Positions 12,551-15,860 of a stretch of DNA of 64,000 bases are shown one piece after another. The notes under the pieces are model-generated. The model searched no databases. It was not told the origin of the DNA and saw only the letters and a program-made list of their open reading frames with translations. Every line of letters starts with the position of its first letter. Within the stretch, counting starts at the first letter, position 1. A program made the translations under genes and the position numbers. Location: the NCBI RefSeq assembly GCF_016026235.1, contig NZ_CP065613.1. One strand, written 5' to 3'. The DNA comes from Escherichia coli. GTDB lineage: Bacteria > Pseudomonadota > Gammaproteobacteria > Enterobacterales > Enterobacteriaceae.

Positions 12551-12956
12551 TACCACCTCTTAAAAAAATGCCCACATAGTGTAGTGCGGAGCGCATGTTG
12601 GGTAAACAGAGTGTTAATGAGAAAATATTACAGAGGAGAATAATTTGTGTGTCAGGTATGTTTTTTGCATTCATAAAATGAATGCTCTATATGTTGAAAA
12701 AATGAATTTTAAAGCTAAATAGTTTTACATCAAAAAAATAATAATATCATTTCTTGATTACCATGTGCATTTTTTATCTTACGAATATGCTAGTTTTATC
12801 TTACTAAATAAACGATTTGGTGACATGGATGATAATGTTTCAGGCTAAATGTGTGCTTATTACTTGGGCCTTTATGGCACTGTATTTATTCATTAAATGG
12901 ATGTTTGGTGGTTAATTATTATGGAAATATATGACAGTGAGGACATAAAGGTATAA

Positions 12957-13892
12957 ATGTTAACTAAAAGAATATTATTTTCTTTAATGCTAATAGTTTC
13001 ACCAGGCGTGGTGGCAAGCGAGAAAGCGCATGAATTGTATGACAGCATATACGGTGGTAAACCTGCTCCCGATGTTATAAATACACTGCATAAAATGGCT
13101 GAATCGGGAGATATCGACGCGCAGAGCCTGTTAGGCTGGGAATATTATCAGCCTCGCTATGATACCAAACCTGATGTTCAGGAAGCGATTAAATGGTTCG
13201 AGTTAGCCGCTAAACAAGGTGACAGAGAAGCTCCGTTAGCGCTGGGGAGTATCTACTACGACGGTGAGCAGGTGCGGGTGGATTATGCCAAAGCGTATGC
13301 ACTATTTAATCAGGCCGCGCAATACGGTGTGAATTTAGCATGGTCCAGGTTGGGCATGATGTACGCCAATGGTCAGTATGTTGAGGTAGATTGTAAGAAA
13401 GCGAAGGAATATCTTGATAAAGGTGTCCACATTTATGGTGGCCCGGAAGACTTTCTGGCTACTTGTCGAAAAGACATGATTGACAGAAAAACGGTTGAGG
13501 ATATGTTACCCGTGATCACGGTTACCCGTTCTGGGATGCGGGATAATTTTTTAGATAAAGGTTTTTCCTGCATGGATAGCCACTTCGCCACCACCAATAA
13601 ATTAGGCGAAGTGGCCAATCTTCGCGTGACATTCAGCATTCGTCGCCCATCCGGTAAGGAGATTAACCAAACGGTTGGCTTCGCGCCTTTCGGTTTAAAC
13701 CGGCTGAATATTAGCTTTACTGATTACCTATTTGGTTCATTTACCAGTAATTCGTCTCTTATTCTTTATAAACCGGAATTTGAGCGAAAATCTTGTGCAA
13801 CTGTAAGGACCACAATCGTTGCCGCAACGGCAACCATTAACGGCAAGGATGTGGAGTTGCTGAAAGCGGGGGCAATTGAACAAAAGTGGTAA
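12957..13892 (+). CDS. secreted Sel1-like repeat (SLR/TPR-like) protein with unassigned C-terminal domain
   Basis: 311-aa ORF; N-terminal signal peptide MLTKRILFSLMLIVSPGVVAS; repeated AxxWFxxAAxQG/YANG motifs; SD AAGG upstream; sits in an insert absent from K-12 (memory). Confidence 0.75.
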   Translation: MLTKRILFSLMLIVSPGVVASEKAHELYDSIYGGKPAPDVINTLHKMAESGDIDAQSLLGWEYYQPRYDTKPDVQEAIKWFELAAKQGDREAPLALGSIYYDGEQVRVDYAKAYALFNQAAQYGVNLAWSRLGMMYANGQYVEVDCKKAKEYLDKGVHIYGGPEDFLATCRKDMIDRKTVEDMLPVITVTRSGMRDNFLDKGFSCMDSHFATTNKLGEVANLRVTFSIRRPSGKEINQTVGFAPFGLNRLNISFTDYLFGSFTSNSSLILYKPEFERKSCATVRTTIVAATATINGKDVELLKAGAIEQKW

Positions 13893-13947
13893 CGCTACTC
13901 AGCCCCCGGCTGAGGCAAGACTTGCCCTGGCGGGTGGCGATAATAAT

Positions 13948-14490
13948 CTAAGCCGCGAGAATATGCTGAATCGCCAAAAACATAGGTACAGCACCAAAAG
14001 CATTTGGTGTCGCTGAAAGCTGAACAAAGCCGAGACGAGCATAAAAGTTAATGGCGGCAGGGTCAGCATCAAGATAAACCCCTTTAATTGGTAATGCCTG
14101 GTGAATTATTTTTACATGTTCAAAAAAATCACATAGTAGGTCCTGACCAAAGCCCCGCTTTTGATACTTCCGCGCTATCCCCAACATGACTAATCTGACA
14201 ACACCAATTTCTGAAGGTTGTGAACCCTGAAGGACGCCAGAAACGCGTTGTTTTTCCAGCGAATATGCCGTAAAAGTACAGATGCCAATCAGTTCACCAC
14301 TTTGTCTGTCAATAAGTGCTTTAGCCGCACAGTCGCTATTACGCACACTTTTCTTTAGCGATGCGCGTACAAATTTATCGATAACAGGGTTACCGCAATC
14401 AAACTGTTTTTGCCCAGGATAAGTAATATCAGACTGATAATTACAGGAGAGGACTATGGGCAGAGTAATCTCTTCATGCTTGTCGACCAT
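13948..14490 (-). CDS. GNAT-family acetyltransferase toxin (TacT/ItaT/KacT-like type II toxin)
   Basis: 180-aa ORF with GNAT acetyl-CoA motif (RKYQKRGFGQDLL); overlaps upstream antitoxin stop by 17 nt. Confidence 0.8.
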   Translation of the reverse strand: MVDKHEEITLPIVLSCNYQSDITYPGQKQFDCGNPVIDKFVRASLKKSVRNSDCAAKALIDRQSGELIGICTFTAYSLEKQRVSGVLQGSQPSEIGVVRLVMLGIARKYQKRGFGQDLLCDFFEHVKIIHQALPIKGVYLDADPAAINFYARLGFVQLSATPNAFGAVPMFLAIQHILAA

Positions 14491-14785
14491 CGCTGTTTTT
14501 CCTTTTCATTAACGCCTTGAGGGCGAGCGTCGGTTGAGCAGGTTCAGCGATGAGTTGGTTCATCAGTTCCCAGCTTTGATTCGAAAGCTCACGGCGACGT
14601 TGGTTATCAAGCACACTTTCGGCGCGTTCCATAGCAGCGCTCAAAATAAAAGCGCTTAAATCTACCCCAACGGCTTGCGCAGCTTCACGAAGTTTGTTTT
14701 TGGCGTCGGGACTAGTTTTGAGTTCGACCCGCGCATTTTTCAGCGTTTTATCGACATCGTGTAGAGTGGCTGTTTTTCCAGGCAT
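14474..14785 (-). CDS. DUF1778 (RHH-type) antitoxin partner of the GNAT toxin
   Basis: Met at 14785 with SD AGAGG; about 103 aa; precedes and overlaps the toxin gene; the ORF extension to 14851 is likely artefactual. Confidence 0.75.
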   Translation of the reverse strand: MPGKTATLHDVDKTLKNARVELKTSPDAKNKLREAAQAVGVDLSAFILSAAMERAESVLDNQRRRELSNQSWELMNQLIAEPAQPTLALKALMKRKNSDGRQA

Positions 14786-14838
14786 TATGACCTCTTTGAT
14801 TAACTGAATGAAATCGTAGGGAGTCGATCTCATACATA

Positions 14839-14916
14839 ATACGGCTATCAACCGTATGATTAATTTATGTGCATCTGCTCACTCTGTCAAGAGATACGGT
14901 TATTAGCCGTATCTCT
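14839..14916. promoter_or_regulatory. two palindromic operator-like sites (ATACGG-N7-CCGTAT) upstream of the antitoxin gene
   Basis: 14839..14857 ATACGGctatcaaCCGTAT; 14890..14916 AGAGATACGGttattagCCGTATCTCT (10-bp perfect arms). Confidence 0.45.
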
Positions 14917-14926
14917 GATCTCAGAC

Positions 14927-14954
14927 AATAAAAAAGGTGCCGTAGCACCTTTTT
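14927..14954 (-). terminator. putative intrinsic terminator downstream of cyoE
   Basis: hairpin AAAAAGGTGC-cgta-GCACCTTTTT; on the minus strand it is followed by a U-run. Confidence 0.5.
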
Positions 14955-14969
14955 AATAGAGAGGTTTTG

Positions 14970-15860
14970 TTACCACACAGCAGCCAGCAGCGTATGCGAG
15001 TCCGGCACCATAAAATCAACGGACATCATCACCGAGAGGGCAGTGATGGCGATGATAGAGAAGCCGAACAGCTTGCGCGCCCAGATTCTGTCATCAGCAA
15101 CTTTATAACCGCGCAGAGCCATACCTAACCACCAGACGCTAACCGCCGCGGCGACCACCAGATATTTATACCCAGCGTAACCGCCAAGAGAGAGCATCAG
15201 CGTGGCAACGGCAAAGGCGATGATATACAGCGTGATGTGATTCTTCGCCACCGAAATGCCTTTTACCACTGGCAATACCGGAATGTTTGCCGCTTGGTAA
15301 TCCTTAAAGCGGAAAATGGCGATGGCATAGGAGTGAGGCATCTGCCACAGGCTGAAGATAGCCAGCAGGATCGCTGCGCCGCTATCGAACTCGCCGGTTA
15401 CTGCACAGTAGCCAATCACCGGCGGCGCAGCGCCGGAGAGCGAACCAATCAATGTGCCGTAGACTGAGTGGCGTTTCATGTACAGGCTATAAACGCCGAC
15501 ATAAACCACAAAGCCCATCACCCCCAGCCAGCAGGCCAGCGGATTCGCGCCAAACCACAGCAGCATAAAGCCAGCAATACCCAGCAAGGTGGCGTACACC
15601 AGCGAGACAGCAGGAGAGATCAGGCCTTTAACCAGCACCCGATTCTTCGTCCTTTCCATCTTTCTGTCGATATCCCTGTCGATGTAGTTGTTAAACACAC
15701 AACCCGACGCCACAACCAGTGACACCCCAACCAGCGTGTAGATAAACAGGGGATAATCAATGCTGCCCTTTGAGGCCAGCAGGAATCCCCCAATCACCGA
15801 GATCAGGTTGCCAAAGATGATGCCTGGTTTCGTTACTTGCAGGTATTGCTTAAACATCAT
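14970..15860 (-). CDS. cyoE: heme O synthase (protoheme IX farnesyltransferase)
   Basis: ORF 14970..15905; Met at 15860 gives [22 protein letters not shown]. Confidence 0.9.

What the first reader, a model, noticed from the sequence alone, without database searches (positions are those of the whole stretch)
12557..12956. Extremely AT-rich 400-bp leader upstream of the Sel1-repeat gene
The 400 bp between the yajR start and the Sel1 gene start is dominated by A/T tracts (TTTTTTGCATTCATAAAATGAATG..., AAAAAAATAATAATATCATTTCTTG...) with no ORF of 60 aa or more. This is typical of H-NS-silenced, horizontally acquired promoters and could also hold a small RNA or a small ORF below the cutoff. It doubles as the divergent promoter region for yajR.
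Basis: seen in the sequence. Interest (0 to 1): 0.35.

Follow-up and report, generated by a model that had tools for sequence, protein, structure and literature searches.

The report
H-NS-bound AT-rich leader of Sel1 island
This is the AT-rich control region of a small accessory gene island (a Sel1-repeat protein plus the ItaRT toxin-antitoxin pair) between yajR and cyoE in E. coli; published data indicate that the silencing protein H-NS binds here, so it is an ordinary example of a known kind that also carries an unproven small ORF and two operator-like palindromes.

Summary
Window 12557-12956 is 29.8% G+C against 50.8% for the window, the second most AT-rich stretch in 64 kb, and has no ORF of 60 aa or more.

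The region is composite. Bases 12551-12620 are ancestral yajR upstream DNA, also present in island-free strains, and hold a conserved promoter-like -35/-10 for yajR. Bases 12621-12956 (27.4% G+C) are the left end of a 2.27-kb island (12621-14892) found in about 25% of complete E. coli genomes. The island carries a Sel1 protein gene and itaT/itaR.

Cryptic Escherichia clades have the same leader in front of two Sel1 genes (499 and 311 aa). Here the first coding sequence has been cleanly lost.

Published H-NS ChAP-seq (PMC4720273) lists yajR as H-NS-bound only in strain SE11, dependent on this same island. SE11's leader is about 98% identical to the window's. The H-NS reading is therefore supported, but silencing itself has not been shown.

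No small RNA is supported. A 28-codon hydrophobic ORF (12829-12915) is the best-conserved block. It lacks a coding substitution signature and is broken in two of six lineages.

Two palindromes, ATTCAT-N3-ATGRAT, lie 219 bp apart (shuffle P about 0.003) and suggest an unidentified regulator.

Verdict: a new member of a known kind, of modest interest.

The parts
12551..12620 (-). Ancestral yajR upstream region (5' UTR plus core promoter). It is shared with island-free strains.
   Evidence: It is identical to O157:H7, which lacks the island, up to 12620. It is 97-100% identical in all Escherichia variants and recognisable in Pseudocitrobacter.
12578..12606 (-). Promoter-like element for yajR: TTTACC (12606-12601), 17 nt spacer, TACACT (12583-12578). 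It predicts a 5' UTR of about 20 nt ahead of the SD GAGGTGG and the ATG at 12550.
   Evidence: The PWM scan finds it at the same place in every variant. The hexamers are invariant in the alignments, including the Pseudocitrobacter locus L009. This is a prediction; no transcription start data were available.
12621..14892 (.). Accessory island between yajR and cyoE: AT-rich leader, Sel1 gene (12957-13892 +), itaT (13948-14490 -) and itaR (14474-14785 -). It has no mobility genes. A 2-bp GA is ambiguous at the junctions.
   Evidence: The junctions come from alignment to the empty site in O157. Annotation comes and Pfam. ItaT matches PDB 7BYY at E=6e-118.
12621..12956 (+). Island-borne AT-rich leader of the Sel1 gene (27.4% G+C). 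It is orthologous to the leader of a two-gene Sel1 operon in other Escherichia, and is probably H-NS-bound.
   Evidence: G+C is. It is 75-77% identical to the 393-bp leader upstream of the 499-aa Sel1 gene in L013-L015. The H-NS ChAP-seq inference comes from SE11.
12621..12660 (-). Conserved left-end block of the island (GAAAATATTACAGAGGAG...GTGTCAGG). It contains a second promoter-like element facing yajR: CTGACA (12655-12650), 17 nt spacer, TGTAAT (12632-12627).
   Evidence: It is 75-97% identical across lineages, while the next 150 bp fall to about 50%. The AAATATTACA motif is kept even in Pseudocitrobacter. The PWM hit is conserved in the window, L013 and AST85 types but not in E. albertii or L016.
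12667..12685 (.). Perfect palindrome GCATTCAT-AAA-ATGAATGC. Its core, O1, is ATTCAT-N3-ATGAAT at 12669-12683.
   Evidence: It is kept, with a loop change, in E. albertii, L016 and L105, and is degenerate in the L013/AST85 type.
12888..12902 (.). Second copy of the palindrome, O2: ATTCAT-TAA-ATGGAT. It lies 219 bp from O1, centre to centre, and sits inside the conserved ORF block.
   Evidence: O1 and O2 are the only two matches with at most 1 mismatch in 64 kb, against 0.29 expected. A perfect 6-3-6 palindrome plus a second copy occurs in 0.25% of dinucleotide shuffles, or 1.4% if any spacer from 0 to 8 is allowed. In O2 the half-sites are more conserved than the 3-nt spacer (TAA, TGG, GAA).
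12763..12806 (+). Tandem 22-nt direct repeat (ATGTGCATTTTTTATCTTACGA / ATATGCTAGTTTTATCTTACTA). Each unit carries TTTT(T)ATC.
   Evidence: The two TTTTATC motifs, 21-22 bp apart, are retained in the otherwise diverged L013 type.
12829..12915 (+). Candidate small ORF of 28 codons, MIMFQAKCVLITWAFMALYLFIKWMFGG. An SD-like GGTGA lies at 12819-12823. The mechanical ORF starts at TTG 12817.
   Evidence: It is the best-conserved block of the island leader (83% against 46-55% in the flanks versus L013; 91% against 77-88% versus E. albertii). It is intact in 4 of 6 lineages. It shows no coding signature and has no homologues elsewhere.
12939..12956 (+). Scar of the lost 499-aa Sel1 gene: its SD (GAGGA, 12939-12943) is fused to the spacer and SD (AAAGG, 12947-12951) of the 311-aa gene, which starts at 12957.
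   Evidence: Comparison of window 12890-13000 with L013 1445-1560 and 2940-3045.

Best explanation
The 400 bp are a composite intergenic control region with two parts.

Ancestral part. The 64-70 bp next to yajR (12551-12620) are ancestral. They carry yajR's own short 5' UTR and a conserved sigma-70-like promoter (TTTACC-17-TACACT).

Island part. The remaining 336 bp (12621-12956, 27% G+C) are the left end of a 2.27-kb accessory island (Sel1 protein plus the ItaRT toxin-antitoxin). They are the upstream regulatory leader of the Sel1 gene.

Origin of the leader. It originally preceded a two-gene operon (Sel1-499 then Sel1-311). In this genome the first coding sequence has been precisely deleted, so the old leader now sits directly in front of the 311-aa gene.

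How it most likely works. Because of its base composition the leader is occupied by H-NS in vivo, and occupancy spreads into the 5' end of yajR. The most likely consequence is that Sel1 transcription is kept low until an unidentified DNA-binding regulator counteracts H-NS. The paired ATTCAT-N3-ATGRAT palindromes and the tandem TTTTATC repeats are candidate sites for such a regulator. Transcripts that start in the leader would run through a 28-codon upstream ORF into Sel1, because no terminator lies between them.

Shown: the composition, the island boundaries, the orthology to the two-gene leader, the conservation pattern, and published island-dependent H-NS binding at yajR in SE11.

Inferred: repression, the position of the Sel1 promoter, the role of the palindromes, and translation of the small ORF.
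For: Composition.

Island boundaries and presence or absence: (1372 of 5426 complete E. coli genomes; the empty site in O157 has a 145-bp yajR-cyoE spacer).

Two-gene version and clean loss of the 499-aa coding sequence.

Same site in E. albertii and in a Pseudocitrobacter-like contig.

H-NS: the methods text and S6 Table of PMC4720273 list yajR among 42 genes bound by H-NS only in strains that carry a neighbouring specific segment. For yajR that segment is SE11 ECSE_0450-0452, with none in K-12 or SE15. SE11 has the same three-gene island, and its leader differs from the window's at 9 substitutions and 1 indel in 406 bp.

Conserved yajR promoter-like element: with the alignments.

Excess of promoter-like sites: 7 found against 3.4 +/- 1.5 expected.

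Repeated operator-like motifs.

No terminator between the small ORF and Sel1.
Against: The H-NS evidence is at table level. I did not see the binding profile or its coordinates, so which part of the island nucleates binding is inferred from composition. A perfect H-NS high-affinity motif lies in itaT (14372-14381) and none lies in the leader.

No expression data show repression or any regulated promoter.

On the + strand no promoter-like element is conserved in position across the leader variants, so the Sel1 promoter is not located.

The Sel1 gene is a pseudogene in several E. coli lineages, so the locus may be decaying and parts of the leader may have no function.
Confidence: 0.7

Rival explanations
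1. The conserved 87-nt block is a real gene for a 26-28-aa hydrophobic, single-helix small protein. It would be co-transcribed with the Sel1 gene or genes, and most of the 'leader' would be its promoter region. This is compatible with H-NS binding.
For: ATG start with an SD-like GGTGA (GGAGG in the L013 type) 5-8 nt upstream. In L105 a TAG sits immediately before the ATG, which fixes the start. The ORF is open with the stop at the same position (TAA, TGA or TAG) in the window type, E. albertii, L105 and the two-gene type. It is the best-conserved block and has no indels, while the flanks have many. Most replacements are hydrophobic for hydrophobic. Variants that lose the stop are rare. It ends 20 nt before the Sel1-499 start in the two-gene version.
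Against: dN/dS is 0.8-1.0 in this frame and is lower in another frame. All six within-E. coli polymorphisms are nonsynonymous. Simulations show that keeping the frame open (P=0.27-0.59) and the BLOSUM score of the changes (P=0.25-0.9) are not unusual. The ORF is broken in L016/L018 (stop), in AST85/L104 (start loss, frameshift, stop) although L104's Sel1 is intact, and by IS1 in TUM17668. A profile search of 1.84 billion proteins found no homologue outside this locus.
Confidence: 0.3
2. The two palindromes O1 (12669-12683) and O2 (12888-12902) are operators for a dimeric transcription factor. Being 219 bp (about 21 helical turns) apart, they could loop the DNA around the Sel1 promoter. The conservation of the 'ORF block' would then reflect O2 rather than coding.
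For: O1 and O2 are the only two matches in 64 kb, against 0.29 expected. Shuffle P=0.0025, or 0.014 with any spacer. In O2 the half-sites stay constant while the 3-nt spacer changes (TAA, TGG, GAA), including a radical Lys-to-Gly codon change in L105. This fits a protein-binding site better than a codon.
Against: The motif was derived from this sequence, so the test is post hoc. O1 is degenerate in the L013/AST85 type, with 2 mismatches, and O2 has 3 mismatches in L016. No regulator gene is in the island apart from itaR, whose likely operator (ATACGG-N7-CCGTAT) is different. I could not match the motif to any known E. coli regulator from memory, and the one literature search did not identify one.
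Confidence: 0.25
3. The island part of the leader is mostly non-functional, drifting AT-rich spacer in a decaying accessory locus. Its motifs and the ORF are chance features that look conserved because of recent common ancestry and recombination.
For: The leader is the most diverged segment of the locus: about 50% identity in 12661-12816 between the window and L013 types, where Sel1 synonymous sites differ by only 25%. Sel1 is pseudogenised in several lineages. There is an IS1 insertion and a 9-bp duplication within the leader. There is no coding signal and no RNA-structure signal.
Against: The conservation is patchy rather than uniform. 12621-12660 and 12829-12915 stay at 80-91% while the sequence between them diverges. 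The ORF block is about three times less diverged from E. albertii (9%) than synonymous sites of the neighbouring genes (23-30%). Sel1 itself is under purifying selection where intact (dN/dS 0.22-0.32).
Confidence: 0.2
4. The leader encodes a small regulatory RNA or a structured cis-acting RNA element such as a riboswitch or thermosensor.
For: It is a long 5' region with a conserved 87-nt block. A 9-bp complementarity between 12866-12874 and the Sel1 SD region 12944-12952 is kept in all one-gene variants through one-sided changes.
Against: There is no Rfam match at E<=1 over 11000-15500. The fold z-score is -0.9. The alignment fold has a covariation term of -0.31 kcal/mol and only one pair with a change on both sides. 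No intrinsic terminator follows any candidate. The SD-pairing segment is absent from the two-gene version.
Confidence: 0.04
5. The small hydrophobic ORF is a type I toxin with an antisense RNA antitoxin hidden in the AT-rich DNA.
For: A 26-28-aa hydrophobic peptide in an accessory island next to another toxin-antitoxin pair.
Against: It has no terminator of its own and runs straight into the Sel1 gene 20-41 nt downstream, in every version. There is no conserved antisense promoter or terminator. It is single-copy with no paralogues.
Confidence: 0.03

Closest known systems
H-NS-bound (xenogeneically silenced) AT-rich regulatory regions of horizontally acquired genes in Enterobacteriaceae
   Same: G+C is about 23 points below the genome average. 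The DNA is strain-variable. Promoter-like sequences are in excess. Published H-NS occupancy spreads from the strain-specific segment into the neighbouring core gene yajR (PMC4720273). The bound regulatory DNA shows high sequence divergence, as that paper reports in general.
   Different: Repression and counter-silencing have not been demonstrated here. No high-affinity TCGATAAATT-like site lies in the leader. The island is tiny (2.27 kb), has no mobility genes, and sits at the same site in several Escherichia species and Pseudocitrobacter. It therefore looks like an old accessory locus that is repeatedly lost or exchanged, not a recent insertion.
Two-gene Sel1 locus of cryptic Escherichia clades (yajR - leader - Sel1-499 - Sel1-311 - itaTR - cyoE; loci L013-L015)
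   Same: Same insertion site, same left-end block, same small ORF and same 311-aa gene. The leader can be aligned over its whole length.
   Different: In the window the 499-aa coding sequence is missing from just after its SD to just before its stop. The middle of the leader (12661-12816) is only about 50% identical.
Upstream small ORFs and small membrane proteins of E. coli (for example those found by ribosome profiling with retapamulin)
   Same: A 26-28 codon hydrophobic ORF with SD and ATG, immediately upstream of and co-oriented with a larger gene.
   Different: No translation evidence was accessible, there is no purifying-selection signature, it is confined to one locus in Escherichia, and it is broken in some lineages.
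Paired operators that act by DNA looping (the principle of the gal, deo and ara operators)
   Same: Two copies of a 15-bp palindrome separated by an integral number of helical turns (219 bp) flank the presumed promoter region.
   Different: No cognate protein is known, the motif is partly degenerate in other lineages, and looping is pure inference.

Membership tests
H-NS-bound xenogeneic regulatory region | AT content well above the genome average over a few hundred bp | tested here: met
   72.6% AT in 12621-12956 against 49% for the window; top 0.6% of windows.
H-NS-bound xenogeneic regulatory region | Belongs to strain-variable or acquired DNA | tested here: met
   Present in 1372 of 5426 complete E. 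coli genomes. O157 has a precise empty site, and SE15 and K-12 lack it.
H-NS-bound xenogeneic regulatory region | H-NS occupancy in vivo | tested here: met
   This comes from the literature, not from my own data. ChAP-seq in SE11 shows yajR bound only when ECSE_0450-0452 is adjacent. The SE11 island and leader match the window. The peak coordinates were not seen.
H-NS-bound xenogeneic regulatory region | Derepression of the downstream gene in an hns mutant | not testable with these tools
   No expression data for ECSE_0450 / ECD_00376 were found.
H-NS-bound xenogeneic regulatory region | High-affinity nucleation motif TCGATAAATT (a supporting feature, not a strictly defining one) | tested here: not met
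   No match with at most 2 mismatches in 12557-12956. The nearest perfect site is at 14372-14381 in itaT.
Small protein gene (sORF) | Start codon with a ribosome-binding site | tested here: met
   ATG at 12829 with GGTGA 5 nt upstream. The two-gene type has GGAGG 8 nt upstream of its ATG.
Small protein gene (sORF) | Reading frame kept open across diverged relatives | tested here: inconclusive
   Open in 4 of 6 lineages. Simulated neutral substitutions keep it open in 27-59% of trials.
Small protein gene (sORF) | Purifying selection at the protein level | tested here: not met
   dN/dS is 0.8-1.0. The six within-species changes are all nonsynonymous. Differences by codon position are 8, 5 and 6.
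Small protein gene (sORF) | Evidence of translation | not testable with these tools
   Ribo-RET Table S2 for BL21 is not held.
Small RNA / structured RNA element | Match to a known RNA family | tested here: not met
   No Rfam hit at E<=1.
Small RNA / structured RNA element | Stable structure supported by covariation, plus a terminator | tested here: not met
   z=-0.9, covariation term -0.31 kcal/mol, one compensatory pair, and no T-tailed hairpin on the + strand.
Type I toxin-antitoxin | Independent toxin transcript with its own terminator and an overlapping antisense RNA | tested here: not met
   The ORF is followed after 20-41 nt by the Sel1 start with no terminator, and there is no conserved antisense promoter.
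Divergent promoter region shared with yajR | The yajR promoter lies within the AT-rich stretch | tested here: inconclusive
   The conserved -35/-10 (12606-12578) lies in the ancestral 64-70 bp, which are 50% G+C-like and present without the island. A second, island-borne promoter-like site (12655-12627) is conserved in only some lineages. No transcription start data were available.
Transcription-factor operator pair | A repeated palindromic motif beyond chance | tested here: met
   Two sites in 64 kb against 0.29 expected; shuffle P=0.0025 to 0.014.
Transcription-factor operator pair | A cognate DNA-binding protein | not testable with these tools
   No regulator is encoded nearby except ItaR, and the motif could not be assigned.

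The most novel reading that the evidence does not exclude
The 87-nt conserved block encodes an Escherichia-restricted 26-28-residue membrane peptide (MIMFQAKCVLITWAFMALYLFIKWMFGG). It would be co-expressed with, and functionally tied to, the periplasmic Sel1-repeat proteins of the yajR-cyoE island. Alternatively, or in addition, the block together with the upstream palindrome forms a looping operator pair for a still unknown regulator that counteracts H-NS at this island.
Probability: 0.3. Interest if true: 0.45.

Novelty: new member of a known kind. Interest (0 to 1): 0.28.

Why it matters
The practical value is mainly in annotation and in choosing what to test. The stretch should not be read as one 'leader'. 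It is an ancestral yajR promoter fused to island DNA that brings H-NS onto a core transporter gene. This is a concrete case of an accessory insertion changing the chromatin context of its neighbour, present in widely used strains (BL21, W, HS, SE11) and absent from K-12. The work also places the studied ItaRT toxin-antitoxin pair in its genomic setting, next to an uncharacterised secreted Sel1 protein. Finally, it gives two cheap, testable leads: the small ORF and the operator-like palindromes. None of this overturns current understanding.

Tried and rejected
- Rfam scan of 11000-15500 at E<=1: nothing.
- Single-sequence and alignment folding of 12800-12975: no significant structure or covariation.
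- dN/dS in all three frames, codon-position counts and substitution simulations for the small ORF: no coding signature.
- Profile search of 1.84 billion proteins with the small-ORF alignment: only two variants from the same locus and one spurious repeat protein.
- tblastn of the small ORF against plasmids: only mislabelled chromosomes.
- H-NS consensus motif scan: no site in the leader.
- Search for a positionally conserved + strand sigma-70 promoter for Sel1: none.
- A sigma-54-like TGGCAC at 12873-12878 was rejected by eye. It has no GC at -12 and is not conserved in the other lineages (alignments).
- ArgR, Fur, Cra, NsrR, TorR, Fis and DnaA consensus sequences recalled from memory were compared by eye with the palindromes and repeats. 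None fits.
- Literature searches for yajR with Sel1, for the RefSeq protein accessions and for old locus tags returned nothing.
- The Ribo-RET BL21 supplementary table could not be obtained.
- A DNA curvature calculation was not run, because I could not reproduce the wedge parameters reliably. A-tract and TpA statistics were used instead.

Full report
**Observation.** Window 12557-12956 is 29.75% G+C, against 50.75% for the whole 64 kb. Only 0.8% of 400-bp windows are as low, and only one other stretch (1148-3156) is lower. The quoted A/T-rich strings are at 12661-12684 and 12732-12756. No ORF of 60 aa or more lies between the flanking ORFs 11186-12556 (-) and 12957-13892 (+). AT content, TpA steps, A/T tracts and W-runs are all in the top 0.3-3% of the window. 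RefSeq starts yajR at the ATG at 12550, so the true spacer is 12551-12956.

**Where the DNA comes from.**
- The window is E. coli: the stretch is 100% identical to strain FDAARGOS_943.
- It is present in 1372 of 5426 complete E. coli genomes, once per genome. These include BL21(DE3), KO11FL (W), O103:H2 and SE11.
- O157:H7 has only the first 64 bases, and in that strain yajR and cyoE are 145 bp apart.
- Alignment to that empty site puts the junctions at 12620/12621 and 14892/14893, with a 2-bp GA ambiguity.
- The finding is therefore composite. 12557-12620 is ancestral yajR upstream DNA. 12621-12956 (27.4% G+C) is the left end of a 2,272-bp island.
- The island encodes a signal-peptide-bearing Sel1-repeat protein of 311 aa, a GNAT toxin and a TacA/DUF1778 antitoxin.
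- The toxin is ItaT. It matches PDB 7BYY at E=6e-118, and that entry is ItaT. The ItaRT paper notes the same pair in BL21(DE3) as ECD_00377-00378.
- The island has no mobility genes.

**Relatives of the locus.**
- The Sel1 protein family is narrow: Escherichia at 80-97% identity, a Pseudocitrobacter-like group at about 60%, and a few proteins at 36-43%.
- In E. albertii the same leader and gene sit at the same site, with different downstream genes.
- In cryptic Escherichia clades and some E. coli (L013-L015) the order is yajR, a 393-bp leader, Sel1 of 499 aa, a 10-bp gap, Sel1 of 311 aa, itaTR, cyoE.
- The window leader aligns with that 393-bp leader over its whole length, at 75-77% identity.
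- The window lacks the 499-aa coding sequence from just after its SD (GAGGA retained at 12939-12943) to just before its stop.
- A Pseudocitrobacter-like contig also has two Sel1 paralogues at this site. It shares the left junction motif AAATATTACA but not the rest of the leader, which there is 46% G+C.
- The locus is therefore an old accessory locus that is repeatedly lost, trimmed and exchanged. Window against L013 gives itaT 99% and cyoE 97%, but Sel1 89.6% and the leader 77%.
- Sel1 is a pseudogene in several E. coli lineages. One strain has IS1 inside the leader.

**H-NS.**
- The consensus high-affinity motif TCGATAAATT has no match with at most 2 mismatches in the leader. The nearest perfect copy is inside itaT at 14372-14381.
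- There is, however, published experimental support. Higashi et al. 2016 (PMC4720273) mapped H-NS by ChAP-seq in K-12, SE11 and SE15.
[quoted passage not shown] For yajR the segment is SE11 ECSE_0450-ECSE_0452, with none in K-12 or SE15.
- I confirmed that SE11 carries exactly this island between yajR and cyoE. Its 407-bp leader differs from the window's by 9 substitutions and one 1-nt indel.
- The leader is the only sequence between yajR and ECSE_0450, and it is by far the most AT-rich part of the island (27% against 45% for the genes). An H-NS-bound region that reaches yajR from the island must therefore cover it.
- This supports binding. It does not show repression.
- The same paper's general finding, that H-NS-bound regulatory DNA diverges fast, fits the leader being the most diverged segment of the locus.

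**yajR promoter.**
- On the yajR strand, TTTACC (12606-12601), a 17-nt spacer and TACACT (12583-12578) are found at the same place in every variant, including the Pseudocitrobacter-like locus. They lie wholly in the ancestral part.
- This predicts a start near 12571 and a 5' UTR of about 20 nt. The island therefore begins about 14 bp upstream of the -35, roughly at position -50.
- A second promoter-like site, CTGACA-17-TGTAAT (12655-12627), lies in the well-conserved left-end block of the island. Its -35 is lost in E. albertii and L016.

**Sel1 promoter and repeated motifs.**
- Promoter-like hexamer pairs are in excess: 7 found against 3.4 +/- 1.5 expected.
- None on the + strand is conserved in position across variants. 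The Sel1 promoter is not located.
- The leader holds a perfect palindrome GCATTCAT-AAA-ATGAATGC (12667-12685) and a second copy of its core, ATTCAT-TAA-ATGGAT (12888-12902), 219 bp away.
- These are the only two matches to ATTCAT-N3-ATGAAT with at most 1 mismatch in 64 kb, against 0.29 expected.
- A perfect 6-3-6 palindrome with a second near-copy occurs in 0.25% of dinucleotide shuffles, or 1.4% if any spacer is allowed.
- In the second site the half-sites stay constant across lineages while the spacer changes.
- A tandem 22-nt repeat (12763-12806) carries two TTTTATC motifs whose 21-22-bp spacing survives in the diverged two-gene leader.
- These look like binding sites for an unidentified regulator. 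I could not assign them to a known one.

**Small ORF.**
- The + strand has a 28-codon ORF (ATG 12829 to TAA 12915; the mechanical ORF starts at TTG 12817). It encodes MIMFQAKCVLITWAFMALYLFIKWMFGG, and GGTGA lies 5 nt upstream.
- It is the best-conserved block of the island leader. Against L013 it is 83% identical where the flanks are 46-55%. Against E. albertii it is 91% where the flanks are 77-88%. It has no indels.
- Synonymous sites of Sel1 and yajR differ by 23-30% between the window and E. albertii.
- It is open, with the stop at the same position, in four lineages: the window type, E. albertii, L105 and the two-gene type. In the two-gene type it has a GGAGG SD and ends 20 nt before the Sel1-499 start.
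- Against coding: dN/dS is 0.8-1.0 in this frame. All six within-E. coli changes are nonsynonymous. Simulated neutral substitutions keep the frame open in 27-59% of trials and give similar BLOSUM scores.
- The ORF is broken in L016/L018, in AST85/L104 (where L104's Sel1 gene is intact) and by IS1 in one strain.
- No homologue exists outside the locus. Ribo-RET data for BL21 could not be reached.
- I rate a functional peptide at about 0.3.
- Part of the block's conservation may instead reflect the O2 palindrome inside it.

**RNA.** There is no Rfam hit. The fold z-score is -0.9, and the alignment fold shows almost no covariation. No terminator-like hairpin with a T tail lies on the + strand within the leader. 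A 9-bp complementarity between 12866-12874 and the Sel1 SD region 12944-12952 is kept in one-gene variants only through one-sided changes. It is noted but not supported. A type I toxin reading fails because the ORF has no transcript end of its own.

**Verdict.** This is an ordinary, well-understood kind of feature: the AT-rich, H-NS-occupied regulatory end of a small accessory island, fused to the ancestral promoter of a core gene. The 'divergent promoter' and 'small RNA' ideas are respectively only partly supported and unsupported. What is new here is the dissection of the stretch: the boundaries, the lost upstream Sel1 gene, the operator-like palindromes and a candidate small ORF whose status remains open.

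Noticed in passing
window 1148-3156 (ORF 1383-2939, - strand): This is the most AT-rich stretch of the window (G+C down to 24.5%). It holds a 518-aa ORF with pentapeptide repeats, inserted between pgpA and yajO. In SE11 those two genes are adjacent, 54 bp apart, so this is a second strain-variable AT-rich insert.
   Followed up: partly
window 14839-14857 and 14893-14913: Two similar palindromes lie 55 bp apart upstream of itaR: ATACGG-N7-CCGTAT inside the island, just downstream of the itaRT promoter-like TTGACA-17-TAAATT (14890-14862, - strand), and GATACGG-N7-CCGTATC just outside the island. The outer one is retained in island-free strains such as O157. This suggests the empty site may be a deletion product that kept an ItaR-operator-like sequence.
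   Followed up: partly
window 14372-14381 (- strand), inside itaT: This is the only perfect match in the 64-kb window to the H-NS high-affinity consensus TCGATAAATT. It lies in the island but not in the AT-rich leader.
   Followed up: no
L002 (BL21(DE3)), corresponding to window about 12624-12633: B strains carry a 9-bp tandem duplication (ATATTACAG) exactly in the conserved left-end block of the island. That block overlaps the island-borne promoter-like -10 facing yajR.
   Followed up: no
L006 (strain TUM17668), corresponding to window about 12899-12907: An IS1A element with a 9-bp target duplication is inserted in the 3' end of the small ORF and the O2 palindrome. This is a natural knock-out that separates the leader from the intact Sel1 gene.
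   Followed up: partly
window 12957-13892 and L013 1491-2990: The 311-aa and 499-aa Sel1 proteins share, after the Sel1 repeats, a C-terminal domain of about 140 aa with invariant cysteines. The domain has no Pfam or NCBIfam match. Full-length relatives are confined to Escherichia, Pseudocitrobacter, Affinibrenneria, Achromobacter and Stenotrophomonas.
   Followed up: partly
locus-wide, window against L013: Divergence along the locus is strongly mosaic: itaT 99.1%, itaR 98.7%, cyoE 97.4%, yajR 95.4%, Sel1 89.6%, leader about 77%, and its middle about 50%. This points to recombination breakpoints inside the island.
   Followed up: partly
L098 (NZ_CP026085.1, labelled 'DH5alpha'): This 4.83-Mb record labelled DH5alpha carries the island, with a frameshifted Sel1 gene. 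K-12 lacks the island according to PMC4720273, so the record is probably mislabelled.
   Followed up: no
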